This document shows, piece by piece, positions 5,329 to 32,367 of a stretch of DNA of 64,000 nt. Source of the stretch: an uncultured Gammaproteobacteria bacterium (lineage in GTDB: Bacteria > Patescibacteriota > Microgenomatia > UBA12405); assembly GCA_964503465.1 (NCBI GenBank), contig CAZCYZ010000004.1, positions 16,235 through 80,234 of the forward strand, read 5' to 3'. The stretch's first letter is position 1; the number at the start of each line of letters is the position of its first letter. The notes under the pieces were generated by a model that saw only the letters and a program-made list of their open reading frames with translations, searched no databases and was not told the DNA's origin. Position numbers and translations under genes: made by a program.

Positions 5329-5329
5329 T

Positions 5330-5965
5330 TTATTTCTTTCTCTTTCTAAATTTCACCCAGACAACATATACCGTCAAAGAAATATAAGCAATTACCCAAC
5401 TTACGACAGTAAATGTCACCGCATTTCTTATTCTCAAAGAGATTAAATACCAGATAACTGTTGCCGGTATCATCCCCAATGTTGATACTACAAAATAGGG
5501 GATAAAGCCCAACTTGGTTAACCCGAAGGCATAAGAGATCACATCGTGAAACTCTTTTAGAAAAAGTCTAAAGACAAATAAAGTTTGTAAACCGTAGTTA
5601 CTTGCCAGTTCATCAATCTTTTCTAAACCGTCTTCACCTGCTAATTTTTTTACTACTCTTCGTCCCCAAATCTTAGCAATCCAAAAATTAGTTATAGATG
5701 CCAACACCGCCGCTGTAAATGCATAAACTACCGACATCTGGCCATAGACATAAAAACCGGCAAACAAAAATGGTGATCCGCTTAGCGGAGCGGCCACATT
5801 GGTAACCCACAAAAAGAAAATCAATAGCATCACCCCCAACGGTCCGGCGTCCTCAATAATTCTTCTAATAGTTTCTTCCGGCACTCTAGCACCAATGATA
5901 ATCATCACTAAAAACACCACCGCAATAAAAACCAGTGGCAAATAACTTTTCTTGATGGCCTTCAT
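5330..5965 (-). CDS. DedA/TVP38-TMEM64-like membrane protein
   Basis: About 210-aa polytopic protein containing the NVAAPLSGSPFLFAGFYVYG glycine/proline segment typical of the DedA family. Confidence 0.4.
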   Translation of the reverse strand: MKAIKKSYLPLVFIAVVFLVMIIIGARVPEETIRRIIEDAGPLGVMLLIFFLWVTNVAAPLSGSPFLFAGFYVYGQMSVVYAFTAAVLASITNFWIAKIWGRRVVKKLAGEDGLEKIDELASNYGLQTLFVFRLFLKEFHDVISYAFGLTKLGFIPYFVVSTLGMIPATVIWYLISLRIRNAVTFTVVSWVIAYISLTVYVVWVKFRKRKK

Positions 5966-6903
5966 AACATTAACTTCCTAATTTCTTCTTCGATATCCGC
6001 CAGTTTCCTTAATTTTTCACTTAATCCCAAGTTGTCTTTTTTCATCAACAAGGTCTGGGCTTCGCCCAACATATCCGCCTGACTGAATTTCAATTTACTT
6101 AGGTTTTCATTATATCTTTTGAAGAAGTTACCATAATCCAATGCTCTTTTAACTCCAAGCGGTAAGGCAAAACCGTTGAGAAAACCGATTTGATAATCTT
6201 TTAGCTCGTTTTTACTAACCAAATCAGCTAAGTGTTTGATCGCTTTACCGTTAATTAAAGCACCGTTGTCTTGTTCTTCCTTATTAGCTTTTTGGTAAAG
6301 CTCCCTAAACCAAACCATCGCTCGCTGGTAGATCTCTTCATCTGTTGGAGAACTGACTCTCGCTGGTTTTGCCCAGTAACGATAGTAACCTCTTTTGTAG
6401 CTGATATCATCTGCTTTCCAAGCTTTAGCTAGTTGATCTTTATTGATAAATACACGAGCAAACCCGGCTGGATCATTAACGTAAACTTTCTCACCCTCAA
6501 TTTTATAAGCCAAAACAAAGTGATCAACTCCAGGTGACTTTGGTCTATCCGGGTTGTAGTCCAAAAAACTCATGTCTAAAGGTCCAATCACCGCCGTTCC
6601 CTCTTTTACCATTTCTCCCAACTCTTCAAATGGAGCCTCACCCGATTCTTTGTTCTTTTCTTCAAATTGAAACCCAAGTATCTCCAGGGCCTTTGATATC
6701 CCCACGTCCGGCTCGCCAGCAACCCCACTAAAAAATGGCAACCCCGATCTTGAGGATACATGGCTACCCAAGCCGACACCGGTTAAGGGTTCAATTAGAT
6801 GTGGTGAAACGTCTTCTCCAATAGACCCCAACATCATCGCTGTTGAGTTGGCATAACAATACCAATAGCCATCAAAGAAGGGAATTTGGTTTGTACAAAA
6901 CAT
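5962..6903 (-). CDS. papain/C39-like peptidase-fold protein (BtrH_N/DUF4872-like)
   Basis: N-terminal YCYANSTAMMLG resembles the C39 dCGpAALAMIL Cys box, and the downstream VDHFVLAY resembles the His box. Confidence 0.35.
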   Translation of the reverse strand: MFCTNQIPFFDGYWYCYANSTAMMLGSIGEDVSPHLIEPLTGVGLGSHVSSRSGLPFFSGVAGEPDVGISKALEILGFQFEEKNKESGEAPFEELGEMVKEGTAVIGPLDMSFLDYNPDRPKSPGVDHFVLAYKIEGEKVYVNDPAGFARVFINKDQLAKAWKADDISYKRGYYRYWAKPARVSSPTDEEIYQRAMVWFRELYQKANKEEQDNGALINGKAIKHLADLVSKNELKDYQIGFLNGFALPLGVKRALDYGNFFKRYNENLSKLKFSQADMLGEAQTLLMKKDNLGLSEKLRKLADIEEEIRKLML

Positions 6904-19180: not shown

Positions 19181-20542
19181 TTGACTGTGAAAAAATGGTG
19201 GCTGTTGGTAATAGGATTAGGGGTGGCTTTGCGGGTGGTGGGGTTGAGTCAAATGCCGGCGGGAGTGATACCAGAGGAAGCGCTGTTGGAATATCGAGCA
19301 GGTTTGCTTAGAACTGAAGGTCGAGATGAAACCGGGCGAAAATGGCCAATAGTGTTTTCATCGTTTGGAGGATATCAGGGACCAGCAACATCGTATTTGG
19401 CAATGCTTGGAGGGACAAGGTGGCCGATGGCATTGGTATCAATAGGCGGATTGATAGCGTTTGGAGTAATTTCAAAAAATGTGGTAGCAGTGGCAGTGTT
19501 GGCCTTATCACCAACAATGATAATGTTGTCCAGATCGGTGTCGGAGTGGAACGCGATGCTAAACATTGGATTAATAGTAGCGACGATAATAATTTGGAGA
19601 GTAAAAAAACAAAGAAGAAAATTTTACTTTGGGATAATGGGACTGTTGGTGATTGCTTGGCTGTGGCTGATGAGGTCACAATTTAACTTTGCTGATGATA
19701 TTTCAATAATTAATGGGATTAATAGGTTTAGGCAAACAGGATCGAGACTGTTTTATAACAAGAGTTACTACGGATTAAGGTTGGTAGAAAATTATTTTGA
19801 CAATATAAAACCCCAATATTGGTTTGTTGGGGGTGATAAAAACTCAATTTATGGTCAGACGAATTATGGAATATTGCTGGCGGGGTTTTTACCGGCATTT
19901 TTGCTAGGCTTACAAAAAATTCTGAAAGAAAAGAAGTGGTGGTTGGTGGGATTGATGTTGATAGGAGTATTGCCATCGGTGGTAAGTTATCCATCACCAA
20001 ACCAGGAAAGGGTGGTAATAGCAACATTGGCGGTAGCAATGATATGTGCGTTGGGGTGGCGACGGTGGATGGCGGTGTTGGTAGCAATTAATTTGGCCTG
20101 GGTGGTGGGGGATGGAATAAAAAATGAAGCGAGGAGAATTGGAGCCCAAAGAAAAACCGAAATAGTGGAATTGGCGAAGTTGGTTGAAAGAGAAATTGAC
20201 AATTATGAAACGATTTATGTGTCGGATGGATATTGTCCGGACGTGGGAGTGGTGTTGGCGGCGAAATTGGGATGGAAAACAAACTTGTGGGGAGAAGGAC
20301 TTAAGAGTAAACAATGGATAAACCAGATAGATAAAATAATAATTGGACAAAAAGATAGCTGGGAACGCGGTGAAGGAAGAATACTGATGATAACTTCGAA
20401 CAATGATGAAATGGAAATGCTAGAAAAATATGAAGTAGTTGACAAAAAGGCGGCCGGAGGATGTTGGCGATCGATGGATAAACTAACTAATTATAAATTG
20501 TGGCAGAAGACAACAACTGAGTGCCGGCCGAGAAAAAAGTGA
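19181..20542 (+). CDS. GT-C fold membrane glycosyltransferase-like protein (ArnT/PMT-like)
   Basis: Polytopic N-terminus with an acidic loop (IPEEALLEYRAGLLRTEGRDETGRKWP), as in the first periplasmic loop of GT39/GT83 enzymes. Confidence 0.5.
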   Translation: MTVKKWWLLVIGLGVALRVVGLSQMPAGVIPEEALLEYRAGLLRTEGRDETGRKWPIVFSSFGGYQGPATSYLAMLGGTRWPMALVSIGGLIAFGVISKNVVAVAVLALSPTMIMLSRSVSEWNAMLNIGLIVATIIIWRVKKQRRKFYFGIMGLLVIAWLWLMRSQFNFADDISIINGINRFRQTGSRLFYNKSYYGLRLVENYFDNIKPQYWFVGGDKNSIYGQTNYGILLAGFLPAFLLGLQKILKEKKWWLVGLMLIGVLPSVVSYPSPNQERVVIATLAVAMICALGWRRWMAVLVAINLAWVVGDGIKNEARRIGAQRKTEIVELAKLVEREIDNYETIYVSDGYCPDVGVVLAAKLGWKTNLWGEGLKSKQWINQIDKIIIGQKDSWERGEGRILMITSNNDEMEMLEKYEVVDKKAAGGCWRSMDKLTNYKLWQKTTTECRPRKK

Positions 20543-22149
20543 AAAATATAATAATTATTAGTTTGGGACTAATCACACTGCTGGCGGGGTGGTTGAGGAT
20601 TTGGAAATTGGGAGAATATCCGGTGTCGTTGAGTTTGGATGAAGTGGTAATCGGTTATGATGCATACTCAATTTTAAAAACAGGGAGGGATCAGCACGGG
20701 AACTGGTTGCCAATAGCTTTTCGCTCGATAGGAGACTATAAAGCACCAACACTGATTTACCTGATGATACCGGCAATTGCAACATTCGGATTGACTGAAT
20801 TTGGAACCAGAATTACGATCGCCGTAATTGGGATGTTGACTCCCCTACTGGCGTATTTGCTGGTAGAGGAAATATTGAAAGGAGTAAAGGAGAGAAAATT
20901 GATTGGGGTGATAACGGCCTTATCGGTGGCAATTAGCCCTTGGCATATTAAGTTTTCCCGATCAACTTTTGAGGCAATACTGGCATTGTTTTTGATGATG
21001 GCGGGAATGTGGTTGTTTTTGAGACTATCGCGATTAAAATCTAGATGGTTTTGGGTGTCGGCAGTGGTACTAGTGGCTTCGGCTTATACTTATCATGCAG
21101 AAAGGGTGTTGGTACCACTGTTGGGATTGGGATTGATAACAATTTGTCGAAAAAGAATTAATGGGAGGTGGTTGGTGGCAGGAGTGATAGCGGCATTACC
21201 ATTATTGTATTTGATGCTTAACCCGCAGGGGAAAACGAGGGCAGTTAACGGTTTTATAGCCAGGGATGTAGAAATCAATAGAGAATACCTGGCAGCGGGA
21301 TGGGATAAGCCGCTAGTGCTGGGAAATTTCTGGTTGAAAAGATATTTGGACTATTGGGATTTGTCGTATCTATTTATCAACGGAGCAGAATTAACAGCAG
21401 TAAAAAGTCCAGGAATAGGACTGTTTTACTTAGTAGAAATAATCCCATTTGTGATGGGGATGTGGATAATATTTATCAGAGGGGTGGTGGGCTGGGATAA
21501 GGAGATGAAGAGCTTGTGGAAATGGTGGCTATTGGTGGGACCAATGGCGGCATCGGTGGCAAATAATGCCCAACACCCATTAAGAAGCCTAACTTGGATA
21601 CCAATGTTGCAAATAGTGGTAGGAATGGGGGTAATTGAGCTGTGGAAGAAGTGGGGGAAGAAAATGCTGGTGGCGGGTGGGCTAGTAGGAATAATATCAC
21701 TTGCCTATTGGAATGATATTTACTTTAGACAGTTTCCGATAAATCAGTCAGAGTTTTGGCAATATGGAATGAAGGAGACGGCCCAATGGGCCTGGGAAAA
21801 CAAAGATAAATATGGGGAAATAGTGTTTGATCCGGTGTTTGGATCAGAAGGACCACATAATTTTGGAATTCCCTATGCTTATGTGTTGTTTTATGGTCAG
21901 TATGATCCGGCAAAATTCCAAACGGCAGAAAGAAGGCGGGTAAAAACTGAAGATTCGGTGGATTTTGAGAACTTTACCTTTAGGTCAACCTATTGGCCGG
22001 ATGATAGAAAAACGAAGAACAGACTGTTTGTGGCCAGTCCGTGGTCGATACCCCAACAGGATATTGCCAATCCAAATCAAATTAAGAAAAAGATATACTT
22101 TAAAAATGGAAGGTTAGCTTTTCTAGCTGTTGAATCGGAAAAACAATGA
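20521..22149 (+). CDS. GT39/GT83-family glycosyltransferase (PMT_2/ArnT-like)
   Basis: SLSLDEVVIGYDAYSILKTGRDQHGNWLPIAF is the DE-motif loop of ArnT/PMT enzymes; 12+ TM. Confidence 0.65.
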   Translation: MPAEKKVKNIIIISLGLITLLAGWLRIWKLGEYPVSLSLDEVVIGYDAYSILKTGRDQHGNWLPIAFRSIGDYKAPTLIYLMIPAIATFGLTEFGTRITIAVIGMLTPLLAYLLVEEILKGVKERKLIGVITALSVAISPWHIKFSRSTFEAILALFLMMAGMWLFLRLSRLKSRWFWVSAVVLVASAYTYHAERVLVPLLGLGLITICRKRINGRWLVAGVIAALPLLYLMLNPQGKTRAVNGFIARDVEINREYLAAGWDKPLVLGNFWLKRYLDYWDLSYLFINGAELTAVKSPGIGLFYLVEIIPFVMGMWIIFIRGVVGWDKEMKSLWKWWLLVGPMAASVANNAQHPLRSLTWIPMLQIVVGMGVIELWKKWGKKMLVAGGLVGIISLAYWNDIYFRQFPINQSEFWQYGMKETAQWAWENKDKYGEIVFDPVFGSEGPHNFGIPYAYVLFYGQYDPAKFQTAERRRVKTEDSVDFENFTFRSTYWPDDRKTKNRLFVASPWSIPQQDIANPNQIKKKIYFKNGRLAFLAVESEKQ

Positions 22150-23993: not shown

Positions 23994-24487
23994 AAATGCT
24001 ACTGCACGTTTGTTGTGCAGATTGTGGACTGAAAATGCTGGCGTCTGTTGGGGGCGGTGTTGAAGTGACGGTGTATTACTATAACCCCAATATTCACCCC
24101 CGATCAGAATATTTATCACGTTTAGCGGCAGTGCAGAAAATGGTGAAGACAAGAGTGATAGTACCTGATTGGCGACCAGAGGAATATTTTAAGAATGTTA
24201 AGAGCAAAAGTAGGTGTGTTGATTGCTGGAAATTGCGATTAGAAAAGACAGTGGCTTTCGCGCAAAAAAATAATTTTGAACAATTTTCATCGACGTTATT
24301 GACAAGCAAATATCAAGATAAAGAGAAGATAGCAGAAATAGGTAAACAGCTGTCAGTTAAATACGGAGTGAATTTTTGGGTACCAGAAAAGATTAACTAT
24401 GACTTGAAAACTTCTGGCTTTTATAAACAGTTCTTTTGCGGCTGCGTGTACTCACTTCGAGAAAGATTTGAGGAAAAATATGTTTAA
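23990..24487 (+). CDS. queH: epoxyqueuosine reductase QueH (DUF208)
   Basis: LLHVCCADCG...YYYNPNIHP...SRCVDCWKLRLEKTVAFA matches the QueH LLHxCCAPCS/YNPNIHP/RCxxC...LRLEKTA blocks. Confidence 0.8.
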   Translation: MKMLLHVCCADCGLKMLASVGGGVEVTVYYYNPNIHPRSEYLSRLAAVQKMVKTRVIVPDWRPEEYFKNVKSKSRCVDCWKLRLEKTVAFAQKNNFEQFSSTLLTSKYQDKEKIAEIGKQLSVKYGVNFWVPEKINYDLKTSGFYKQFFCGCVYSLRERFEEKYV

Positions 24488-25671
24488 TTCAGGATTGTGT
24501 CAACAAGTTTGTGAGTCAAGGCAGAGGGATCAAAGATCTGTCGTGACTCAAGAGCAATGCTAGCTAATTGACCCCGAATTTGCGGTTGGTCAGCGTAGGC
24601 GGCGACAAAACTCCTGGCTTGTTCAAGACAATCGCTGGGTTTTGGTCCAACAATAATACCTGGATATTGAGTAAATTTATTAAAAATTTCTGTCGAGGCT
24701 GGACAACGACGAGCAATAACTGGAAGACCAAACATGAGTGCTTCGACAGTAGTAAGGCCAAAACCTTCTTGCGGGGACATAGTGACAAAAAGATCATTGG
24801 ATAAATAGGCGTGGCAAAGGTTTGATCCATAAAGTGGGCCTTGGAGACATACTCCAGTTGATTGGGCAAGTTCTTGACAGGCTTGATAATACTTTGAATT
24901 ATGGGCTGGACCAACAAGATTAAATCTAGCGAAGTTGATTGCTTTGGCTAAACTAAAAAATAAATCGGTCCCTTTTTCGGGTGAAAGACGGGAAACAGAG
25001 ATAATACGAGGAGGGGGGGAGAAATTATCAACCAGTCGGGTACCAGTGCAGGTCAAAGAGGTGGGTGGATGACAAACAATGGCTGGCTTTCTTAATCCCT
25101 TGGATTCTAACTGACTGACGATATAATGAGCTACGGCGACTGGCTGGATACGGGTGGTATTCCAAAGTTCAATAGTAGATAGTTGACCAAAGGCACGATA
25201 AAGGTAGCGAGGGAGTTGGCCTGGGCTAAATGAAACTCCGGAGGGACAATAATCAAGATCTCCGTGAACGATTTGAGTAACCTTGGCACTAGACCTAGAA
25301 GCAATGGGGAGTAACGGTAAAAAATATGGATTTAACCCATTAAAAACAATGGATCTGGGTTGGAGATCTTGAATTAATCTGCGAAACTCCATTAATCTTT
25401 GAGGCGATGGTAAACGCTGTCTCAACAGATCCGAATTCGTTAGCTTGTGCTGAACAACTTGTGCTGGCAAAGGATCAGGGTTACTGGTGTCAATTCGATC
25501 ACTCCAAAGAGCAAGATTTAGCCAATCTGTTTCGATCTCTCGATTACATAATTCTGCCGCCACAGCACGACAGACTGTTTCGACACCGCCGGTGTTCCCC
25601 GGCCCACAACCGTTGACCAATAGAACTCTTTCTTGACTAGACATAACAATATCGGCCCAATTGTACGACAT
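24484..25671 (-). CDS. glycosyltransferase family 4 (GT-B, glycos_transf_1)
   Basis: EGFGLTTVEALMFGLPVIA is the EX7E motif of retaining GT4 enzymes. Confidence 0.8.
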   Translation of the reverse strand: MSYNWADIVMSSQERVLLVNGCGPGNTGGVETVCRAVAAELCNREIETDWLNLALWSDRIDTSNPDPLPAQVVQHKLTNSDLLRQRLPSPQRLMEFRRLIQDLQPRSIVFNGLNPYFLPLLPIASRSSAKVTQIVHGDLDYCPSGVSFSPGQLPRYLYRAFGQLSTIELWNTTRIQPVAVAHYIVSQLESKGLRKPAIVCHPPTSLTCTGTRLVDNFSPPPRIISVSRLSPEKGTDLFFSLAKAINFARFNLVGPAHNSKYYQACQELAQSTGVCLQGPLYGSNLCHAYLSNDLFVTMSPQEGFGLTTVEALMFGLPVIARRCPASTEIFNKFTQYPGIIVGPKPSDCLEQARSFVAAYADQPQIRGQLASIALESRQIFDPSALTHKLVDTILN

Positions 25672-25720
25672 ATTAGATACATATGCAAGTTAAATGACGG
25701 ATGATAAAATGGGTTACCAA

Positions 25721-25860
25721 TCCCGGGTGTCCTGGTGTTCCGACGCAAGTTGGGAAGGTTGGTGTTTCGCCAGCCGGGCACGGATGAGTGTCCGTTGAAA
25801 TTAGAACCAATTATTAATAAATCTGCGATTTATCAATAATTGAGGCAGGACACCCGGTAG
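25721..25860 (+). ncRNA. candidate retron msr/msd non-coding RNA
   Basis: Perfect 12-bp inverted repeat CCGGGTGTCCTG (25723-25734) and CAGGACACCCGG (25846-25857), the a1/a2 arrangement, with internal stem-loops, ending 10 nt before the RT ATG. Confidence 0.5.
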
Positions 25861-25866
25861 GTTTTT

Positions 25867-26691
25867 ATGAAATGGTTGATTAATCTATTTGAGGGAGGTA
25901 GGAACCTAGAGAGGTTAAACCAGTGGTTAGGGAAAATTGAGTGGCCAGAGAGTTGGGATTATAGGAGTTTTGAGATTAGAAAGAGGAATGGTGGCAAGAG
26001 ATTGATAGAGGCACCAAATGAAAAATTGAAAGCATTGCAGGTAAGAACTTATGAATTGCTTCTTAAATACCTTAAACCCCATCCGAGCTGTGTGGGATTT
26101 GTACCGAGGCTGTCAATCGTCGAGGCGGCTAAAATACATGTAGACAAAGAGGTAATAATTAACTTGGACTTGAAGGATTTTTTTCACTCGATAACAGAAA
26201 AAAGAGTGTACCGATATTTTCGGGGAATTGGCTGGGGAAGAACAGCGGCAAAAATGCTAACCAAGATCTGTTGTCACAGAGGACGGTTACCGATGGGGGC
26301 ACCGACCAGCCCGATGTTGAGCAATGTAATTAATTATCAAATGGATGAAAGAATTAATAAGTTGGCAGGAAAATTGGGAGGGCAATATACCAGATATGCG
26401 GATGATATAACTTTGTCGTTTGATGAGTTTGGAAGCAAGCAGAAAATAGTTTTAAAAGTATTACCAGGAATATTGAATGATTATGGTTTTGTGATTCAGA
26501 AGAAAAAGAAGGTAAGAATTCAGAGACGACACCAACGACAAACAGTGGTGGGATTGGTGGTTAATAAAAAAGTAAATTTGCCTAGATGGTGGAGAAAGAA
26601 ACTGCGAGCAATGAAACATCAAGGAAAAATTGATAAAAACAAGATGCGGGGGTATGAGGGATTGATGAAAATGGTGGAAATGAGAAGATAA
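25867..26691 (+). CDS. retron-type reverse transcriptase
   Basis: RNGGKRLIEAP, DLKDFFHSI, RLPMGAPTSPMLSN (QGxxxSP-type, not the DGR SQ variant), YTRYADDITLSF (YxDD) and the retron-specific RQTVVGLVVN (VTG region). Confidence 0.8.
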   Translation: MKWLINLFEGGRNLERLNQWLGKIEWPESWDYRSFEIRKRNGGKRLIEAPNEKLKALQVRTYELLLKYLKPHPSCVGFVPRLSIVEAAKIHVDKEVIINLDLKDFFHSITEKRVYRYFRGIGWGRTAAKMLTKICCHRGRLPMGAPTSPMLSNVINYQMDERINKLAGKLGGQYTRYADDITLSFDEFGSKQKIVLKVLPGILNDYGFVIQKKKKVRIQRRHQRQTVVGLVVNKKVNLPRWWRKKLRAMKHQGKIDKNKMRGYEGLMKMVEMRR

Positions 26692-26694
26692 GTG

Positions 26695-27237
26695 CTATTC
26701 CTCCTCGAGGACGTTTTCGTCGGCGGCGGGTTGGGTTTGAATTTTGGTTTGTTTACCGACGGTAGGAGTGGGATAGAAGAATTCAAAAGAAGAGACGATT
26801 TGGTTGAAGAGTTTTTCCTGCGAGAGAGGAGCTTCGATAGTGACCAAAACATCGTTGTCAATAACACCAAGAGTAATTTTGTCAGTGGTTTGAACTTTAA
26901 GAGCTTCCTTATCGCCAAGAACTGTTTCGGTGGCTTTGGAGTTGTTAGCCCAGGCGGTTAGACTTTTGTATTTGTTATCCTGCATTAAAACTTTGACAGA
27001 GTCAAACTCGAGATTGGCGTAATTAACTGAATCCTCGGGGTGGTTGTTGATAGTTAATCCATCGGGATACTGGAAGGTAAAGCCAGCAGGATCGGTCCAG
27101 GTAAGGAGTTTGGCGGCAGGAGAAGAGGTTGGTGGAACCGAAGTAGGAGGAATGGAAGTGGTAGATGGGGAAGTACAAGCGGTAAGAAAAGCAAGGGAAA
27201 AGACAGCGACTAGAAAGGCTTTGTTTTTGAGCATAGA
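26695..27237 (-). CDS. lipoprotein (Pro/Thr-rich linker), convergent on the RT gene
   Basis: Start trimmed to MLKNKAFLVAVFSLAFLTAC (lipobox), followed by a PT-rich linker and a beta-rich domain. Confidence 0.45.
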   Translation of the reverse strand, partial: SMLKNKAFLVAVFSLAFLTACTSPSTTSIPPTSVPPTSSPAAKLLTWTDPAGFTFQYPDGLTINNHPEDSVNYANLEFDSVKVLMQDNKYKSLTAWANNSKATETVLGDKEALKVQTTDKITLGVIDNDVLVTIEAPLSQEKLFNQIVSSFEFFYPTPTVGKQTKIQTQPAADENVLEEE

Positions 27238-27256
27238 TAAGCTATTATACATTGAT

Positions 27257-27673
27257 ATGCGATGGATGTGGATTTGGTTACTTTTGGGATTTTTGATGAT
27301 GCCCGACAAAATAGAGGCGGCAAAACCTCGAAATTGGGCGGGGACGAGGGTAGCGGTAACAGCAACCAGTGGAGGGACACCATGGGTGAGAGCGAAACTA
27401 ACAAAATGGAAACAGTATGTGTTTTTGAGCTTGGGAGGGCTGGGAAATGTTGAGAGTGTCGACTACGAACTGACTTATAGTGGAAATGGAATGGAACAGG
27501 GAGTGTGGGGAACGATAAAGGGAGGGGCTAATGTTAGTCGAGAACTATTTATGGGGACGTGTTCGCATGGTGTGTGTGTGGCCCACAAAAACATTAGTGG
27601 AATTAAATTAGGGCTAACTTATAAAATGAAGGACGGAAAAACAACAGTCAAGAGATATAAGGTTAGATATTAA
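27257..27673 (+). CDS. small secreted protein (signal peptide)
   Basis: MRWMWIWLLLGFLMMP signal sequence; 138 aa. Confidence 0.4.
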   Translation: MRWMWIWLLLGFLMMPDKIEAAKPRNWAGTRVAVTATSGGTPWVRAKLTKWKQYVFLSLGGLGNVESVDYELTYSGNGMEQGVWGTIKGGANVSRELFMGTCSHGVCVAHKNISGIKLGLTYKMKDGKTTVKRYKVRY

Positions 27674-27680
27674 AATATTA

Positions 27681-28283
27681 ATGAATCAGAAAATAATAAT
27701 TGGGGTGTTGGCGGTTAGTTTAATGATAGGGGGATGTACCGGGACAAAAACAGGAAATGGGGTAGTTGGTGATAGACAAGAAGGTGGTGAAAATGGTTTG
27801 CAGAAGTCATTGAAAGAAATAATGGCTGGTGGACAAGCGCAAAAATGCACGGTAAAAATGCAGAGTGAGGAAGAGGGAGGACTGGAAAGCGAGATATGGA
27901 TTAAGGGTAAAAAAATGAAACAAATAACTAAATCGGAAGCGCTGGGAGGAGGGGGTGAGGAGATGACAATATATGTAATCAGCGATGGAGAGTGGATATA
28001 TAACTGGAATAATAAAACGAACCAAGGAATAAAAATGAAAGTTGGAGAATCAGAAAAACAGGATCAAGAAGCGAAAGAAAACTTTAAGGGATCGGCAGTG
28101 GACTGGGATAAAAAGATTGACTATGATTGCAAGGTGACCAGTGTGGCTGATAGTGAGTTTGCGCCGCCGGCATCGATAAAATTTGTTGATTGGGCAGCCG
28201 AGGCGGCAGGAATGCAGGAGAAAATAGAAGAACAGTTGAAAAAGCTGGAGATAACGGGTGTGCCGGAGAGTGAAGAAGAGTAA
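27681..28283 (+). CDS. lipoprotein, acidic
   Basis: MNQKIIIGVLAVSLMIGGCTG lipobox followed by a Glu-rich mature domain. Confidence 0.5.
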   Translation: MNQKIIIGVLAVSLMIGGCTGTKTGNGVVGDRQEGGENGLQKSLKEIMAGGQAQKCTVKMQSEEEGGLESEIWIKGKKMKQITKSEALGGGGEEMTIYVISDGEWIYNWNNKTNQGIKMKVGESEKQDQEAKENFKGSAVDWDKKIDYDCKVTSVADSEFAPPASIKFVDWAAEAAGMQEKIEEQLKKLEITGVPESEEE

Positions 28284-29481
28284 CAGGGAAAAAATTGTTT
28301 GGTTACTACTAGGACTGGTTGGAGTGACGGGATATTTTGGGCTGAGATGGCAAAATTTTGAGGAAAGAATGATTTTTGGAGCTGATGGGGGGGAGCATAT
28401 GCTTGAAAGCTACCAAATGTGGCAGAAAAAAGAATTAAGACTGGTTGGCCCGAAAGTTGGATCACGACAATACCTGGGGCGAGAAGTATTTATAGGACCA
28501 CAATATTATTATTTACTGGCAGGTCTGGGGGTGGTTTTTAACTGGGAGGCGGTGGGGATAACAAAATTTTTTAGCCTGGTGGAGCTGATGGTATTTGGGT
28601 GGTTTGTGATTTGGATAATAAGGAAATATGGCCCAGTAGAGGGAGCGATGGTGGGAACTGGCCTGGTGTTGTCACCATACCTAATTGCTCATAACCGTTT
28701 TATATGGAACCCACATCCGGTGTTGTGGCTGGGATTGATTTTGGTGGCAGTGTTGGAAAAAAAGAGATGGTTTTGGGTGGGGATAGTGTGGGGATTGGCA
28801 ATGTCATTTCACTTTAGTGCTATGTTGTGGGTGGTACCAATAATAGTACTAGTAGCAAAAAATATCAAAGAAAAATGGTGGTTAGTAGGGGCGGGATGGG
28901 TGTTGGCTGAACTACCATATGTGGTTTTTGAACTGAGACACAATTTCTATAACTTAAAAACATTAATAATGATAATGTTGGCTGGAGAAAATAAAGGAAC
29001 AATAGAGTGGCATCATGTCATTAGTCCCCTGCTGGGACTGGGGTTGTGGCTAGTGGCGGCAAAAATAAACAAAATTAAAAAGGTGAGAGTAAAGGTGGTG
29101 GTCGGAATAGTAGTAGTGGGGATAAGCTGTTGGGGACAGAGGGGAATGTTAATTGACCAACCGCGGGGCTGGAATTACCCCGAAAAAACTAAAGCGGTAA
29201 AAATGATTTTGAACAAAGGCTGTCCAACAAATTACAACGTGGCATCAACAGTGGATGGAAATACCAGAGCAAACGATTTGAGATATTTATTGACAACCAA
29301 AAACTGCCCACCAATGGGGCCAGCTGAATACCCAAAAATGAAAAAAATGTTCTTGGTGGCAGCAAATAGTAGGCCAATAGAAAATGAAACGGTTTGGGAA
29401 GTAGCCAGTGGAGGAAAGTTTGAGATACTAAGAAAAGAGAAACTAAACGATGATATTAATTTGTATGAATTAGATTATTAA
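28258..29481 (+). CDS. polytopic membrane protein, GT-C-like
   Basis: About 10 TM with a Trp-rich membrane core. It is paired with the next gene; 1-nt gap. Confidence 0.4.
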   Translation: MCRRVKKSNREKIVWLLLGLVGVTGYFGLRWQNFEERMIFGADGGEHMLESYQMWQKKELRLVGPKVGSRQYLGREVFIGPQYYYLLAGLGVVFNWEAVGITKFFSLVELMVFGWFVIWIIRKYGPVEGAMVGTGLVLSPYLIAHNRFIWNPHPVLWLGLILVAVLEKKRWFWVGIVWGLAMSFHFSAMLWVVPIIVLVAKNIKEKWWLVGAGWVLAELPYVVFELRHNFYNLKTLIMIMLAGENKGTIEWHHVISPLLGLGLWLVAAKINKIKKVRVKVVVGIVVVGISCWGQRGMLIDQPRGWNYPEKTKAVKMILNKGCPTNYNVASTVDGNTRANDLRYLLTTKNCPPMGPAEYPKMKKMFLVAANSRPIENETVWEVASGGKFEILRKEKLNDDINLYELDY

Positions 29482-29482
29482 G

Positions 29483-30895
29483 ATGAAAAAGGCAATAGTG
29501 ATCGGGATAGTGTTGATGGCAGTTTTTTGGAGATTTTACAAGTTTGGTGATAGGTGGGTGCTAAATCAAGACCAGGCAAGAGATGCCATAATCGGACTGT
29601 ACGCGATAAGAAATGGGCAAGTACCAGAGATTGGATCGCCATCATCAGCGGGACCGTTTAATTTTGGACCATGGTATGACTTTGCGATTATGGGTTGGCA
29701 GAAAGTGCTACCAAATGTTGATGGGCCATGGATTGGTTTTGGGGTATTTTCGGTGTTGATAGTGATGGGGATGATGAAAATTGGCCAAATAACGGAAGGA
29801 GGAAGATTAGCGGTGATATTGGGATTAATTACAGCATTTAGTGTGGGTCAGGTGGAAAACGGCGGAGAAATGCTTAACACGGTGCTGGTGGCGACAACCT
29901 CGACAATCGCCCTGGTAGCGATGGCAAAATTGGTAAAAGGAAAAAAGATTTGGTGGGGATTAATGTTGGGGGCGGGAGTGGGATGGTCAATTAATTGTCA
30001 TTTTCAGTCGTGGGGACTCTTGAGCTTGATGTTAACGGCTGGTTTGATTAATGATTTTGACTGGAGAGGAAAAATCAAAAGTAGTATATTAATGGGGGTT
30101 GGTTTCTTGGCAACATTTGTACCAATAATAATGTTTGACATTCGAAACGGAGGGGTGTGGACACAAAGTGTGTTTGAGTACTATACAGTAGGAGTAAAAA
30201 AATTCTATGTACCAGTAAGGTGGTTAACGGAAATTAGGGATTTTTGGCCGAGATTGTTTGGGGTGGTAACAACGGGAGTGCCGGAGATGGGTTATGTAAT
30301 TTTAGGGTTGGGGGTGATAGTGGGAGTGGGACTGACAATTAGAAAAAAGAAAATTGAAAAGTTTTGGTTGGCTTTGGTGGTGTCGTTGCTGATTCAGGTA
30401 TTGCTGATGAGGTTTTATCGCGGAGTACGGTCAAGAGAATACTTGATAGTGTTTCAGGGATACATAATCTTGATGACAGGATGGGTGATGAGCGAAATTT
30501 ATGATAGGCAAAAACTGATAGGAGTAGGGTTGTTGGGGATGTTGTTACTAATATCTGGGAGAAACAACTGGGTGGTGGTGAACAGGAAAAGCCAGATAGA
30601 GGAAATAGTAGCAATTAAAAAAGAAATTGATGAAGAAGCGGGAGATAAAAAGGTAATTTTTTACAACTATGAGCAATCAGACATGGCTTCTTTACCACTG
30701 ATGTATTTGTATTATTGGGAAAACAAAATTGACGAGGAAGGAGTAGCGGTGGGTGTGTGTGACGGAAATAGATACAAATGTCCACCAAGTGATTTTAAAA
30801 GTGGAAGAAACTACAACATTTACTATGATTTGAAAACCGAATGGACCAAACTAACTCCAGAGAATGTTTACCAAAGGTTGAGGGTGAATTACTAA
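29483..30895 (+). CDS. polytopic membrane protein, GT-C-like
   Basis: 470 aa, more than 10 TM, with a C-terminal soluble domain. Confidence 0.4.
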   Translation: MKKAIVIGIVLMAVFWRFYKFGDRWVLNQDQARDAIIGLYAIRNGQVPEIGSPSSAGPFNFGPWYDFAIMGWQKVLPNVDGPWIGFGVFSVLIVMGMMKIGQITEGGRLAVILGLITAFSVGQVENGGEMLNTVLVATTSTIALVAMAKLVKGKKIWWGLMLGAGVGWSINCHFQSWGLLSLMLTAGLINDFDWRGKIKSSILMGVGFLATFVPIIMFDIRNGGVWTQSVFEYYTVGVKKFYVPVRWLTEIRDFWPRLFGVVTTGVPEMGYVILGLGVIVGVGLTIRKKKIEKFWLALVVSLLIQVLLMRFYRGVRSREYLIVFQGYIILMTGWVMSEIYDRQKLIGVGLLGMLLLISGRNNWVVVNRKSQIEEIVAIKKEIDEEAGDKKVIFYNYEQSDMASLPLMYLYYWENKIDEEGVAVGVCDGNRYKCPPSDFKSGRNYNIYYDLKTEWTKLTPENVYQRLRVNY

Positions 30896-31410
30896 TGGAA
30901 ACAAGAGAAGAAAAAATCAAACGGGTAATGAGCCAAAGACATAGTGGAGTGATAGTGCTTGAGGACATACATGATCCGCACAACGCGGCGGCAGTGTGGC
31001 GAAGTTGTGATGCCTTTGGATTTGGAAAAGTGAACTTAATTTTTGAACAGGAAGAAAAGTTTAATCCGAAGCAGGTGGGAAAAGCAAGTTCGTCATCAGC
31101 CAACAAATGGCTTGAATTTGAAACATTTAACTCAACTGAAAAGTGCTTTAACAAACTGAAAAGTGAGGGGTATACAATCTATGCGACAGTGTTGGACCAG
31201 GAGGCCAAAGACCTAAAAGAAATAAACTTTGAGAAAGGTAAAATTGCGATTTGTTTTGGAAATGAACATCGAGGATTATCGGAAACGGCAATCAGGTTGG
31301 CAGACAAAAAAATTTATATTCCAATGCAGGGAATGGTGCAGAGTTTGAACTTATCAGTAACGGCGGGAATTGTGATGTGGGAAGTCGGTCGACAGTGGTC
31401 TAAACGATAA
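30895..31410 (+). CDS. SpoU/TrmH-family RNA 2'-O-methyltransferase
   Basis: VLEDIHDPHNAAAVWRSCDAFG...ICFGNEHRGLS...IPMQGMVQSLNLSV are SPOUT motifs. ATG overlaps the upstream stop (taATGg). Confidence 0.75.
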   Translation: METREEKIKRVMSQRHSGVIVLEDIHDPHNAAAVWRSCDAFGFGKVNLIFEQEEKFNPKQVGKASSSSANKWLEFETFNSTEKCFNKLKSEGYTIYATVLDQEAKDLKEINFEKGKIAICFGNEHRGLSETAIRLADKKIYIPMQGMVQSLNLSVTAGIVMWEVGRQWSKR

Positions 31411-32010
31411 ACGATGGATGGGGCAAGGACCATGGAGTTTTAAGGCAGAAAGGTGTTGTTTGGTGCCATAGCCTTTGTGGTGCTTAAAGCCGTATTGGGG
31501 ATACTGGGAATCAAAACCATCCATAATACAGTCACGAGTAACCTTGGCAACGATGGAAGCGGCGGCGATAGAAAAACATTTTTGATCGCCCTTGACAATG
31601 GACAAACCCCTCCGTCCTACGGACACCTCCCCTTGACAGGGGAGGAATCCGTCCAGAAGATAAAAATCAAACTGGCCTTGGAACGCACGTAATGCTTGAA
31701 TAACGAGTAGATTAATTGTTCGACCTATCCCCTGCTGATCGATATCGACAGAGGCGGCGGAAAATGTTTGGGGACGAAAAGATTGGAGATAGTAAAAAAT
31801 TTTTTGACGTTGACGGGAACTTAGCAATTTGGAATCACGAACAGAGAGATTGATAAACTCTTGGGGATTAAAAGTACCAAGGTCAAGAAGAAAAGCACCG
31901 ATGGTAACCGGACCGGCTAGTGGCCCACGACCAACTTCATCGATACCGAGAAGAAAACGACAACTAGGAGGGAGAAGGGATTTTTCGAAATCAAAATTGG
32001 GACTAATCAT
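31354..32010 (-). CDS. rnhB: ribonuclease HII
   Basis: LGIDEVGRGPLAGPV catalytic motif. The start was trimmed to MISPNF..., and the gene carries an in-frame palindromic element. Confidence 0.85.
   Translation of the reverse strand: MISPNFDFEKSLLPPSCRFLLGIDEVGRGPLAGPVTIGAFLLDLGTFNPQEFINLSVRDSKLLSSRQRQKIFYYLQSFRPQTFSAASVDIDQQGIGRTINLLVIQALRAFQGQFDFYLLDGFLPCQGEVSVGRRGLSIVKGDQKCFSIAAASIVAKVTRDCIMDGFDSQYPQYGFKHHKGYGTKQHLSALKLHGPCPIHRLSFRPLSTDFPHHNSRRY
31603..31653. repeat. palindromic element copy A (double hairpin), in frame within rnhB
   Basis: AAACCCCTCCGTCCTACGGACACCTCCCCTTGACAGGGGAGG; encodes LPCQGEVSVGRRGL in RNase HII. Confidence 0.7.
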
Positions 32011-32025
32011 GTGATAATGAATTAT

Positions 32026-32148
32026 ATGGCAGTAAAAAAAATTGGAGAGAAATACTGTTGCGCGATTTGTGGCAATGAGGTAACGGTAACTAGAGTGGGA
32101 GGGGGAACTTTGATATGTTGCGGACAGGCAATGAAAATTGTAGAGTAG
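32026..32148 (+). CDS. desulforedoxin-like mini-protein (40 aa), not in the ORF track
   Basis: MAVKKIGEKYCCAICGNEVTVTRVGGGTLICCGQAMKIVE versus D. gigas desulforedoxin [37 protein letters not shown]; shared Y.C..CG..V.V...GGGTL.CCG..M. Confidence 0.6.
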   Translation: MAVKKIGEKYCCAICGNEVTVTRVGGGTLICCGQAMKIVE

Positions 32149-32367
32149 ATTGATTGCCAAGAAGCTATTTGGAACGATTGCAGGATGTGTATAAACCTCA
32201 GGAGGGACAACCATTGGTGACTCATAGGCCGTTTGGATTGGGAGCAATATTAAAAGATAGACCATTTGAAAAATTGTCGCCGCGGGAAAAACTAACATTA
32301 GTTAACCATCCGGATCCAGAGATAAGAGAGTGGGCAAGAAATCATAGGTTGGGGTAAAATAAGCGAG

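What the first reader, a model, noticed from the sequence alone, without database searches (positions are those of the whole stretch)
25672..26691. Retron-like RT plus upstream structured ncRNA with perfect a1/a2 inverted repeats and no recognisable effector
The 274-aa ORF carries retron-diagnostic motifs: NGGKRLIEAP, DFFHSI, LPMGAPTSPMLSN, YADD and RQTVVGL-VN (the VTG region). Directly upstream, a 12-bp perfect inverted repeat (CCGGGTGTCCTG at 25723-34, CAGGACACCCGG at 25846-57) brackets about 111 nt containing further stem-loops (e.g. ACGGATGAGTGTCCGT, ATAAATctgcgATTTAT). This is the geometry of a retron msr/msd RNA ending just before the ret start codon. Known retrons are tripartite toxin/antitoxin-like defence systems. 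Here the flanking genes are a divergent GT4 glycosyltransferase and a convergent lipoprotein, and none is a known effector class. This may be an orphan or streamlined retron, or one with a novel (secreted/lipoprotein) partner. The RT gene has host-like composition, so it is probably long resident.
Basis: partly seen in the sequence, partly recalled or inferred. Interest (0 to 1): 0.85.

Follow-up and report, generated by a model that had tools for sequence, protein, structure and literature searches.

The report
Two-part retron without an effector gene
This is a compact retron, made of a reverse transcriptase gene preceded by its structured template RNA, from a widespread and previously unmodelled lineage related to protease-fused (type XI) retrons; almost all members of that lineage carry no linked effector gene, so it bears on the open question of what effector-less retrons do.

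Summary
ORF 25867-26691 (274 aa) is a retron-clade reverse transcriptase. Retron models score 207-258 bits, against 47 bits for group II intron RT and 41 for Drt2.

A 143-nt structured RNA lies directly upstream at 25719-25861. It has a 12-bp a1/a2 closing stem, an invariant unpaired G, three msr-like hairpins and one msd-like hairpin. It folds far better than shuffled sequence (z = -6.5). A covariance model built from 5 relatives finds the same RNA upstream of the RT, on the same strand, in about 90 further loci. These come from candidate-phyla-radiation bacteria (CPR), Planctomycetota, Methylomirabilota and other groups, and the alignment shows strong covariation.

These RTs form one clade (NJ bootstrap 97), separate from the type XIII RTs I fetched. 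Median length is 316 aa. A few members carry C-terminal trypsin-like or CHAT protease domains, and these fall in the window's own subclade.

No neighbouring gene is conserved. The GT4 gene is absent from the two closest syntenic relatives. Homologues of the lipoprotein occur elsewhere with no RT nearby.

RT and RNA are both under strong constraint. The best reading is a functional two-component retron, a protease-less relative of type XI. msDNA synthesis and the biological role remain untested.

The parts
25702..25710 (+). Promoter-like extended -10 element (TGATAAAAT), 12 nt upstream of a1
   Evidence: Read directly from the sequence. Comparable TGnTAnAAT or TATAAT elements sit at the equivalent place in L001, L002, L003 and L005 (alignment A1). 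The strict sigma-70 scan did not call it, so this is an inference.
25719..25861 (+). Retron ncRNA (msr-msd), full extent of the covariance-model match
   Evidence: The R1 model scores 139.6 bits here and this is its only hit in the 64-kb window. Fold z = -6.5. There is no Rfam family match.
25723..25734 (+). a1 arm of the closing stem
   Evidence: 12/12 complementary to 25846-25857. 10 of the 12 pairs show changes on both sides across 83 loci, with 95% of cells paired.
25735..25735 (+). Unpaired G directly 3' of a1; candidate 2'-OH branching/priming guanosine
   Evidence: The U-G-G motif at the end of a1 is at least 97% conserved in the 83-sequence alignment. The G is unpaired in the MFE and consensus structures. 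Its priming role is inferred by analogy with canonical retrons.
25738..25755 (+). msr-like stem-loop 1
   Evidence: MFE structure. This is helix 3 of the model: all 5 pairs show changes on both sides and 95% of cells are paired.
25757..25775 (+). msr-like stem-loop 2, the sequence-conserved hairpin GGUUGGUGUUUCGCCAGCC (family consensus GGcnGaUGuUUCGuCngCC)
   Evidence: Helix 4 is 99.7% paired and several positions are nearly invariant. It aligns to the Ec86 msr hairpin GGAUGUUGUUUCGGCAUCC, which is the best R1 hit in the 5-kb Ec86 locus (9.8 bits, E 0.1).
25776..25793 (+). msr-like stem-loop 3 (the weakest helix)
Evidence: MFE structure. Helix 5 is 78.5% paired across the family.
25808..25842 (+). 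msd-like hairpin (15-16 bp, triloop UGC); presumed reverse-transcription template
   Evidence: Found as an inverted repeat. In helix 6 all 16 pairs show changes on both sides and 95% of cells are paired. Across the family the length varies from 12 to 57 nt (median 19), and 55 of 83 sequences have a UGC, CGC, UAC or UUC triloop. The template role is inferred.
25846..25857 (+). a2 arm of the closing stem, followed by AGG and the RT start codon 9 nt later
25867..26691 (+). Retron-type reverse transcriptase gene (274 aa, RT domain only, no fused effector)
   Evidence: Pfam RVT_1 1e-20. PADLOC retron RT models score up to 258 bits and NCBIfam retron models 207-217 bits. The closest solved structure is the Ec86 RT, 7e-40. 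pN is 0.10-0.12 against pS 0.68-0.76 versus L001 and L002.

Best explanation
This is a functional, minimal retron made of only two parts: a 143-nt msr-msd ncRNA (25719-25861) and a 274-aa RT (25867-26691). The whole unit is about 1 kb. It belongs to a large, coherent RT + ncRNA lineage that sits beside the protease-fused type XI retrons but normally has no fused or linked effector.

Proposed mechanism:
- Transcription starts from an extended -10 element just upstream of a1, giving one msr-msd-ret RNA (inferred).
- The a1/a2 duplex and the conserved msr hairpin (GGnnGAUGUUUCGUCnnCC, the counterpart of the Ec86 msr hairpin) dock the RT (inferred).
- The RT primes from the 2'-OH of the invariant unpaired G25735 and copies the msd hairpin leftwards from about 25845, with host RNase H trimming the template (inferred).
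- The product would be a short hairpin msDNA of roughly 40-50 nt, 2'-5' linked to the msr RNA (inferred).

What is shown: the RT family assignment, the conserved and covarying RNA, the absence of any conserved neighbouring gene, and strong purifying selection on both parts.

The biological output is unknown. My best guess is that the RT-msDNA complex acts as a phage sensor or guard that works through an unlinked host factor, or acts by itself.
For: RT family: all 25 PADLOC matches listed (of 63) are retron RT models, 173-258 bits. NCBIfam retron models score 207-217 bits, against 47.5 for group II intron RT, 41 for Drt2 and 33.5 for Drt3a. The nearest solved structure is the Ec86 RT.

ncRNA: fold z = -6.5. 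In five relatives, 19 of 48 predicted pairs are kept through changes on both sides. The covariance model R1 hits directly upstream of the RT, on the same strand, in about 90 of about 170 fetched loci, with E from 1e-4 to 1e-35. On 83 sequences, 93.5% of cells are paired against 31-52% when partners are slid. There are 989 cells with changes on both sides against 129-165 in the slid controls, and 0 of 500 shuffles reach the observed score. The UGG motif at the end of a1 is invariant. The conserved hairpin aligns to the Ec86 msr hairpin.

Clade: one bipartition with NJ bootstrap 97 holds 88 of 89 ncRNA-positive RTs and 0 of 19 type XIII RTs. Median length is 316 aa and 180 of 199 are 350 aa or shorter.

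No effector:
- In L001 the unit is bounded by the QueH stop 15 nt upstream and the convergent gene 1 nt downstream.
- The GT4 gene is absent from L001 and L002.
- The CPR-type relatives sit in five unrelated contexts.
- Among 129 immediate neighbours of about 72 non-redundant loci, the commonest Pfam family, generic ABC/AAA ATPases, occurs only 5-6 times.
- The window has no homologue of the fused effector domains and no defence-model hit among 50 ORFs other than three models, mad3, mad8 and DndH, each matching one ORF that I did not identify.

Constraint: RT amino-acid identity is 79-82% against 70-74% for QueH. pN is about 0.1 with synonymous sites saturated, and the ncRNA is 81-93% identical.
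Against: No experiment shows msDNA, a 2'-5' branch or any phenotype. The alignment used for the covariation counts was fitted to the model, which inflates pairing. The Ec86 hairpin match is only 9.8 bits (E 0.1). The G is preceded by UG rather than the TTA often seen in functional retrons (PMC10849725). The window RT has AAxxH and VVG in place of the retron NAxxH and VTG motifs. The msd-like hairpin is very short in most family members (median 19 nt), shorter than I recall for any characterised msd. The template may therefore be placed differently, or the product may be unusual. An effector encoded elsewhere in the genome cannot be excluded from a 64-kb window. My neighbour analysis used crude ORF calls and only the +/-1 genes for the domain census.
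Confidence: 0.72

Rival explanations
1. This is a normal tripartite retron whose effector is encoded elsewhere in the genome (in trans), outside the window. The RT-msDNA complex holds or activates that unlinked toxin, as in characterised retrons.
For: All characterised retrons act through an effector (PMC7736814). Close relatives in the same 22-member subclade carry fused trypsin-like or CHAT protease domains, so this lineage does use effectors. Mestre et al. raise trans effectors as a possibility for orphan retrons.
Against: The fused effector domains have no homologue anywhere in the 64-kb window. 180 of 199 clade members lack a fusion, and none of about 72 non-redundant loci shows a recurrent neighbour. 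Defence toxin/antitoxin pairs are normally tightly linked. Mestre et al. report that most genomes with orphan retrons lack homologues of known retron-associated proteins.
Confidence: 0.2
2. One of the adjacent genes, the convergent lipoprotein 26695-27234 (-) or the divergent GT4 glycosyltransferase 24484-25671 (-), is a novel retron effector.
For: The lipoprotein abuts the RT stop codon (3 nt away) in the window, and the same arrangement occurs in L001 and L002. The GT4 gene gives a weak, sub-threshold match to Pfam 'GT4-conflict' (21 bits, cut-off 26).
Against: The GT4 gene is absent between QueH and the retron in L001 and L002. The lipoprotein is absent from all other RT contexts. Its homologues occur in three other contexts with no RT or R1 hit within 5-6 kb. 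In the RT-less L177 it keeps its divergent 136-aa partner gene. Neither gene hits any PADLOC model.
Confidence: 0.03
3. This is a decaying remnant: a type XI-like retron that lost its protease domain and is now a non-functional relic.
For: The RT is the shortest in its clade (274 aa against a median of 316). It has substitutions in both retron-specific motifs (NAxxH to AAxxH, VTG to VVG). Protease-fused relatives sit in the same subclade.
Against: The ORF is intact and keeps YADD. pN is 0.10-0.12 against saturated pS, and the RT is more conserved than the neighbouring housekeeping gene QueH. The ncRNA is 81-93% identical and retains every helix. The same short form and motif variants are shared by P0002, P0003 and P0004 at 68-82% identity, so they are selected features and not decay.
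Confidence: 0.04
4. The RT and RNA work together but not as a classical msDNA-producing retron. The RNA could be a scaffold or regulatory leader. Alternatively, the RT could make another product, such as a repetitive or concatemeric cDNA as in DRT2, DRT3 or DRT9, in which case the cDNA itself would be the effector.
For: The effector-less RT + ncRNA architecture resembles DRT2, which from my own knowledge of the literature needs only an RT and an ncRNA. The template-like hairpin is unusually short and has a conserved triloop. The G context is not the common TTA-G (PMC10849725).
Against: The RT scores 41 bits on the Drt2 model and 33.5 on Drt3a, against more than 207 bits on retron models. The a1/a2 stem, unpaired G, msr hairpins and terminal hairpin follow the canonical retron layout. 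One hairpin matches the Ec86 msr. The variable hairpin is too short and too variable to encode a product.
Confidence: 0.1

Closest known systems
Type XI retrons (Mestre et al. [quoted passage not shown]
   Same: RT-Protease_XI is the window RT's best PADLOC model (258 bits). RT-Trypsin_2 fusions (P0017/L167 with Trypco1 downstream; L087) fall in the window's 22-member subclade (bootstrap 90). They also carry an R1-type ncRNA upstream.
   Different: The window RT has no protease or any other C-terminal domain. Even the fused relative P0017 scores only 277 bits on the type XI model, against 248 on type XIII, so the whole clade is divergent from the modelled type XI. No ncRNA could be predicted for type XI in 2020 (PMC7736814).
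[quoted passage not shown]
   Same: Both are type XI-related RTs that lack the protease and have a de novo predicted a1/a2-flanked ncRNA upstream. This gives the same picture of a conserved RT-ncRNA core with variable accessories.
   Different: Those lineages are in Bacteroidota and Bacillota and are defined by recurrent WYL (37%) or DnaB_C (69%) accessory genes. Their ncRNAs have 2-3 stem-loops and 23-25 base pairs. Here the hosts are CPR, Planctomycetota and others. No WYL or DnaB_C appears in the 25 most frequent of 81 Pfam families matched by 129 neighbours; that list ends at 2 members each. The RNA has 4 stem-loops plus the closing stem, 48 pairs in all. I could not compare sequences directly.
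Orphan retrons of the Ec107 (Retron-Eco5) branch and clade 11 (Mestre et al. 2020)
   Same: These are an RT plus msr-msd with no specifically associated protein, and their function is unresolved.
   Different: The RT lineage is different. PADLOC RT_Ec107-like scores 190 bits against 258 for the best model.
Retron-Eco1 (Ec86), type II-A, the best-characterised retron with solved structures
   Same: It is the closest solved RT (7v9u, E 7e-40). The RNA layout is the same: a1, G, msr hairpins, msd hairpin, a2. The conserved msr hairpin aligns to Ec86 GGAUGUUGUUUCGGCAUCC.
   Different: Ec86 has a linked effector gene, annotated in RefSeq as 'retron St85 family effector protein', immediately upstream. 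Its msd is also much longer. R1 does not detect the Ec86 ncRNA as a whole.
Type XIII retrons (Mx162-like; SWIM/winged-helix plus HEAT/ARM-repeat partners)
   Same: RT_XIII is the second-best model for the window RT and the best for several clade members.
   Different: True type XIII RTs, identified by SWIM and HEAT neighbours, score 423 bits with a 140-bit margin. They fall outside the window's clade and lack convincing R1 hits; the only one is a minus-strand match in L054 (E 0.0015). The window has no N-terminal extension and no SWIM or HEAT neighbour.

Membership tests
Retron (general) | RT belongs to the retron/retron-like RT clade and not to group II intron, DGR, Abi or UG/DRT clades | tested here: met
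   All 25 PADLOC matches listed are retron RT models, up to 258 bits. NCBIfam retron models score 207-217 bits against 47.5 for group II, 41 for Drt2 and 33.5 for Drt3a. There is no TR/VR-like repeat in the window.
Retron (general) | [quoted passage not shown] | tested here: inconclusive
   The window has AAKIH and VVG. Many clade members have NAxxH and VTG. The variant forms are shared by P0002-P0006. The catalytic YADD is present.
Retron (general) | Adjacent ncRNA with a1/a2 inverted repeats enclosing msr stem-loops and an msd hairpin, with a conserved G at the end of a1 | tested here: met
   The closing stem covaries (10 of 12 pairs), the UGG motif is invariant, and there are three msr-like helices and one variable hairpin.
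Retron (general) | Production of 2'-5' branched msDNA | not testable with these tools
   This needs RT-dependent small-DNA extraction and debranching.
Retron (tripartite defence system sensu Mestre/Millman) | A specifically associated effector protein or fused effector domain | tested here: not met
   The RT is 274 aa with no extra domain. No neighbour is conserved across about 72 non-redundant loci. GT4 and the lipoprotein are excluded.
Type XI retron | [quoted passage not shown] | tested here: not met
   There is no protease domain in the ORF, and phmmer finds no trypsin, CHAT or Trypco1 homologue in the six-frame translation of the window. RT affinity to type XI is real but loose.
Type XIII retron | Clade 10 RT with an N-terminal extension plus SWIM/winged-helix and HEAT/ARM partner genes | tested here: not met
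   A true type XIII RT scores 423 bits against 251 for the window. The two fall in separate clades. There are no such neighbours.
TXI_C2like / TXI_noncan_h (Toro 2026) | Protease-less type XI-like RT with recurrent WYL or DnaB_C accessory genes within +/-2 genes; Bacteroidota or Bacillota hosts | tested here: not met
   Neither WYL nor DnaB_C appears in the 25 most frequent of the 81 Pfam families that the 129 +/-1 neighbours match; that list ends at 2 members each, so any occurrence would be in at most 2 neighbours. The window's neighbours are QueH, GT4 and a lipoprotein. I could not make a direct RT or ncRNA sequence comparison with that dataset.
DRT2-like RT + ncRNA systems | UG2-clade RT matching the Drt2 model | tested here: not met
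   Drt2 scores 41 bits against a curated cut-off of 390.
NCBIfam 'retron St85 family RNA-directed DNA polymerase' (NF038233) | Score at or above the curated cut-off of 235 bits | tested here: not met
   The score is 212.5 bits, just below the cut-off. Relatives P0009 and P0012 are named this way by NCBI.

The most novel reading that the evidence does not exclude
The window's retron represents a large, ancient family of autonomous two-component retrons (RT + ncRNA only). In this family the RT-msDNA ribonucleoprotein is itself the functional unit and not the antitoxin or sensor of a linked toxin. The family is inherited vertically and kept under strong selection even in the streamlined genomes of CPR bacteria. 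Fused proteases (trypsin-like, CHAT) would then be occasional later add-ons. If so, 'tripartite toxin-antitoxin-like defence' is not the ancestral or only retron logic, and the very short hairpin msDNA with its conserved triloop has a direct role, for example as a decoy or ligand for a phage or host nucleic-acid enzyme.
Probability: 0.25. Interest if true: 0.8.

Novelty: new variant of a known kind. Interest (0 to 1): 0.55.

Why it matters
Retrons are currently understood as three-part abortive-infection systems. What effector-less retrons do has been open since Mestre et al. (2020).

This locus is a clean case for that question. The unit is about 1 kb and tightly bounded, and it is under strong purifying selection. 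It belongs to a clade in which 180 of 199 sampled RTs (at most 350 aa) have no room for a fused effector domain, and no neighbouring gene recurs across the roughly 72 non-redundant loci examined. A covariance model now finds its ncRNA across several phyla, including protease-fused relatives.

That gives an experimentally tractable set for three tests: whether RT + ncRNA alone has a phenotype, what the unusually short msDNA looks like, and how fused proteases were added.

It also puts retrons in CPR/Patescibacteria-type genomes, which are small. My searches of the paper library found no report of retrons there. Compact RT/ncRNA pairs of this size are also of practical interest for retron-based genome editing.

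Tried and rejected
- Rfam found nothing. The evalue scan of 25000-27500 gave only a chance hit, and the gathering scan of the whole window gave no match.
- My DNA search pattern for the inverted repeat used a gap of 50-80 nt instead of 111 and is uninformative.
- The batch fold of upstream regions failed on the length limit, so I used alignment folding instead.
- The strict sigma-70 scan found no + strand promoter. The extended -10 element is my reading by eye.
- A genome-contig scan did not recover the source genome or the Shapirobacteria genome. It returned only relatives of 47% identity or less, so the window's taxonomy rests on the nearest named RT (Candidatus Shapirobacteria) and on gene content.
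- Literature searches for retrons in Patescibacteria and for effector-less retrons found nothing specific.
- I considered and rejected six readings:
  1. A DGR: no TR/VR repeat.
  2. A group II intron or DRT: model scores.
  3. Type XIII.
  4. The lipoprotein or GT4 as effector.
  5. The 274-aa ORF in L178 being an RT: no similarity.
  6. The GT4 in L177 being orthologous to the window's GT4: only 30% identity over 107 aa.
- R1 does not detect the Ec86 ncRNA as a whole, only one hairpin.
- I did not run structure prediction or the representative-protein search, because they would not discriminate between the explanations.
Full report
**1. The observation**

The perfect 12-bp inverted repeat 25723-25734 / 25846-25857, with 111 nt between the arms, is real. 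So is the inner AT-rich hairpin 25808-25842. Region 25715-25866 folds at -68.6 kcal/mol, against -41.0 +/- 4.2 for dinucleotide shuffles (z = -6.5, 0 of 200 as good). The fold is a closing stem that encloses three small hairpins and one longer hairpin. The flanking genes are a divergent GT4-type glycosyltransferase (Glycos_transf_1, 7.5e-16) and a convergent ORF with a lipobox.

**2. What the protein is**

Pfam sees only RVT_1. All 25 PADLOC matches listed (of 63) are retron RT models. The best are RT-Protease_XI (258 bits), RT_XIII (251) and RT-TIR_XII (242), and each matches over its RT part only. NCBIfam gives three retron models at 207-217 bits:
- retron_Ec67_fus scores 217.5 bits.
- retron_St85_RT scores 212.5 bits, just below its cut-off of 235.
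- Retron_TIR_antiphage scores 206.8 bits.

For comparison, group II intron RT scores 47.5 bits, Drt2 41 and Drt3a 33.5. The nearest solved structure is the Ec86 RT (7v9u, E 7e-40). The ncRNA region has no repeat elsewhere in the window that could act as a DGR template/variable pair. The RT is therefore a retron-type RT.

As a calibration, a bona fide type XIII RT (locus L047, identified by its SWIM and HEAT-repeat neighbours) scores 423 bits on RT_XIII with a 140-bit margin. The window RT and four relatives score 258-304 bits, with types XI, XII and XIII within 3-30 bits of each other. The RT is therefore not a member of any type that PADLOC models.

**3. What the upstream RNA is**

The closest homologues are P0002 (82%) and P0003 (79%). 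More distant ones are P0009 (54%, Candidatus Shapirobacteria), P0007 (52%), P0005 (56%) and P0013 (50%). All of them have a gap of about 140-160 nt upstream of the RT.

These regions align, and the a1/a2 stem is kept by compensatory changes:
- window: CCGGGTGTCCTG / CAGGACACCCGG
- L003: TCAGGCGCTTTG / CAAAGCGCCTGA
- L005: CCAGGCGTTTTG / CAAAACGCCTGG

In this five-sequence alignment, 19 of 48 predicted pairs are kept through changes on both sides.

A covariance model built from these five sequences (R1) gave a single hit in the 64-kb window. In about 1.4 Mb of fetched loci it hit about 90 loci, nearly always directly upstream of the RT on the same strand, with E from 1e-4 to 1e-16 for sequences not used to build it.

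On an 83-sequence alignment:
- 93.5% of cells are paired, against 31-52% when partners are slid by 1-3 columns.
- 41 of 48 pairs have changes on both sides.
- 989 cells have changes on both sides, against 129-165 in the slid controls.
- 0 of 500 shuffles reach the observed covariation score.

The caveat is that this alignment was fitted to the model.

Conserved features are the UG at the end of a1 paired with CA at the start of a2, the next unpaired G (window G25735), and a hairpin with consensus GGcnGaUGuUUCGuCngCC (window 25757-25775).

I retrieved the Ec86 retron locus from E. coli B and searched it with R1 with the speed filters off. The best hit in 5 kb, on either strand, was the Ec86 msr hairpin GGAUGUUGUUUCGGCAUCC, aligned to exactly that model hairpin (9.8 bits, E 0.1). 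This is weak on its own. It is consistent with the hairpin being a homologous msr element. The overall layout is the canonical retron one: a1, G, msr hairpins, variable hairpin, a2, then the RT gene.

The variable msd-like hairpin is 33-35 nt in the window's sub-lineage. Its median is only 19 nt (7 bp) across the family, and 55 of 83 sequences have a UGC, CGC, UAC or UUC triloop. No Rfam family matches the RNA.

**4. Where the RT sits among retrons**

I built a neighbour-joining tree of 265 non-redundant RTs with 100 bootstraps. It included the ncRNA-positive loci, 19 type XIII loci identified by their SWIM and HEAT neighbours, other retron RTs from the genome scan, and the top 120 protein hits.

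One bipartition with 97% support contains 88 of 89 ncRNA-positive RTs and none of the type XIII RTs. Of the 7 ncRNA-negative loci inside it, several have the upstream region cut off by a contig end. Within this 199-member clade the median RT length is 316 aa, and 180 are 350 aa or shorter.

The window falls in a 22-member subclade (bootstrap 90) with its CPR-type relatives. The same subclade holds RT fusions to a trypsin-like protease (P0017/L167, with a Trypco1 gene downstream; L087), to a CHAT caspase-like protease (L100, L109; Pfam CHAT 30-33 bits, above the cut-off of 24), and to other C-terminal regions. These fused relatives also have R1 hits upstream.

The window's retron is therefore best described as a protease-less relative of type XI-like retrons, in a clade where the unfused state is the rule.

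**5. Is there an effector?**

The evidence against a cis-encoded effector is as follows.
- In L001 and L002 the retron sits directly after QueH and the GT4 gene is absent.
- In L001 the ncRNA starts 15 nt after the QueH stop. In both L001 and L002 the convergent minus-strand ORF begins 1 nt after the RT gene ends. The unit is about 986 bp with no room for another ORF.
- More distant relatives lie in unrelated contexts: RRM protein and lactate permease; sortase and shikimate dehydrogenase; NfeD/Band_7 and Exo_endo_phos; response regulators.
- I clustered all ORFs within 4 kb of the RT across 167 loci. The only large non-RT clusters were the type XIII SWIM and HEAT genes, in ncRNA-negative loci, and a generic ABC ATPase family (11 loci, variable position).
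- A domain census of 129 immediate neighbours of about 72 non-redundant ncRNA-positive loci found AAA_21/ABC_tran in 5-6 of them. No WYL, DnaB_C, protease, TIR or Toprim family appears in the 25 most frequent families listed, and that list ends at 2 members each.
- The lipoprotein is conserved only in the syntenic trio. Its homologues in three other contexts have no RT or R1 hit within 5-6 kb. In the RT-less L177 it keeps its divergent 136-aa partner gene.
- The fused effector domains of relatives have no homologue in the six-frame translation of the window.
- Fifty window ORFs hit no defence model other than mad3, mad8 and DndH, one ORF each; I did not identify which ORFs these are.

A trans effector outside the window cannot be excluded.

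**6. Is it functional?**

Between the window, L001 and L002, synonymous sites are saturated (pS 0.68-0.76) while pN is 0.10-0.12. Where dS can be calculated, dN/dS is about 0.06. The RT is 79-82% identical at the amino-acid level, against 70-74% for the adjacent QueH, and the ncRNA is 81-93% identical. YADD is intact.

The retron-specific motifs are variant in this sub-lineage (AAxxH and VVG instead of NAxxH and VTG). These variants are shared at 56-82% identity, so they are selected features. An extended -10-like element (TGATAAAAT, 25702-25710) lies 12 nt upstream of a1. Similar elements are at the same place in relatives. This is my reading by eye; the strict scan did not call it.

**7. Mechanism**

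The retron RT family, the conserved covarying RNA, the lack of any conserved neighbour, and the selective constraint are shown. The following steps are inferred by analogy with Ec86 and other characterised retrons:
- A single msr-msd-ret transcript is made.
- The RT binds the conserved msr hairpin and the a1/a2 duplex.
- The RT primes from the 2'-OH of G25735 and copies the msd hairpin from about 25845 leftwards.
- Host RNase H trims the template. An ORF at 31354-32298 (-) carries a GIDEVGRGPLAGPV motif that I read, from memory, as RNase HII-like; I did not confirm this with a model search.
- The product is a hairpin msDNA of about 40-50 nt.

The downstream biology is unknown. I rank the options in this order: an RT-msDNA complex that acts alone or with an unlinked host factor; then a classical toxin encoded in trans; then a non-msDNA mode.

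**8. Comparison with the literature**

Mestre et al. (PMC7736814) define type XI as a clade 8 RT fused to a trypsin-like protease, and could not find its ncRNA. They also note orphan retrons in clades 2 (Ec107) and 11, whose function is open. Khan et al. (PMC10849725) validated some clade 8 / type XI ncRNAs experimentally. They report that the branching G is often preceded by TTA; here it is preceded by UG.

Toro (bioRxiv 10.64898/2026.05.14.725207) reports that 207 of 232 type XI-like RTs in SPIRE lack the protease. That paper describes two lineages in Bacteroidota and Bacillota with WYL or DnaB_C accessory genes and 2-3-stem-loop ncRNAs.

The present clade differs from those in three ways. 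Its hosts are CPR, Planctomycetota, Methylomirabilota and others. It has no recurrent accessory gene. Its RNA architecture is different. I could not compare sequences with those datasets, so overlap with their unassigned type XI-like candidates is possible. Literature searches found no report of retrons in Patescibacteria.

**9. Verdict**

It is a new variant of a known kind: a two-component, protease-less, type XI-related retron with a newly modelled ncRNA family. Interest is moderate (0.55). [quoted passage not shown] What is new is the size and coherence of this effector-less clade, its tight 1-kb unit under strong selection in small genomes, the very short msd-like hairpin, and the mix of trypsin- and CHAT-fused relatives. 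Together these make it a good system for asking what effector-less retrons do.

Noticed in passing
window 1-64000 (switch near 7667): The + strand has an extreme positive GC skew, +0.22 to +0.40 in 4-kb bins from 8 kb to 64 kb. The cumulative skew minimum is at about 7.67 kb, and skew is slightly negative before that. The skew stays positive over minus-strand genes. A DnaA Walker motif (GVGKTHL) lies on the minus strand at about 63.74 kb, at the far right end and about 56 kb from the skew switch. NCBIfam also finds a DnaN match in the window, and I assign it to ORF 61443-62570 (-) by its size and its position next to dnaA.
   Followed up: partly
window 1-64000: There are no tRNA genes and no Rfam family at gathering threshold anywhere in the 64 kb. 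This is unusual for a stretch of this length.
   Followed up: no
L100:846-2474 (+) and L109:1437-2990 (+) (approximate RT ORFs): These retron RTs of the same clade are fused at the C-terminus to a CHAT/caspase-like protease domain (Pfam CHAT 29.8 and 33.4 bits, above the cut-off of 24; HFSGHG and NACYS motifs), and each has an R1-type ncRNA upstream. RT-CHAT fusions are not among the fused effectors listed by Mestre et al. (Toprim, TIR, trypsin-like protease).
   Followed up: partly
P0050, P0060, P0061, P0091, P0111 (412-431 aa): These clade members carry a C-terminal extension of about 120 aa that JGI labels 'TIGR03067 family'. Pfam sees only RVT_1 in P0050. This may be another fused module.
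   Followed up: no
L167:4638-4762 (+), upstream of RT-Trypsin_2 gene 5001-6431 and Trypco1 gene 6470-6802: A type XI-like RT-protease locus has an R1-type ncRNA hit (31.9 bits, E 2e-6) about 240 nt upstream of the RT, overlapping the end of a pentapeptide-repeat gene. This may supply an ncRNA for a protease-fused type XI-like retron.
   Followed up: partly
window 26695-27309 (-) and 27044-27673 (+): Two overlapping ORFs are both conserved in L001 and L002. The overlap disappears if the lipoprotein starts at the internal Met near 27234 (signal peptide MLKNKAFLVAV...LTAC) and the + strand gene is the 136-aa version starting near 27263. Gene callers missed or truncated the minus-strand lipoprotein in L001 and L002.
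   Followed up: yes
window 53233-55845 (+) and 55870-59214 (+): NCBIfam finds a VirB4-like conjugal-transfer ATPase (CD1110 family, 1.8e-113) in the window. By size I assign it to ORF 53233-55845 (870 aa), which is followed by a 1114-aa ORF. This suggests a type IV secretion-like or conjugative module about 27 kb from the retron.
   Followed up: no
window 19181-22149 and 28258-30895 (+): Four large polytopic membrane ORFs flank the retron region. Their counterparts in L001 carry weak PMT_2 (GT39-like glycosyltransferase) hits. With the small syntenic genomes and the Shapirobacteria relative, this suggests a CPR/Microgenomates-type host, but I did not establish the taxonomy directly.
   Followed up: partly
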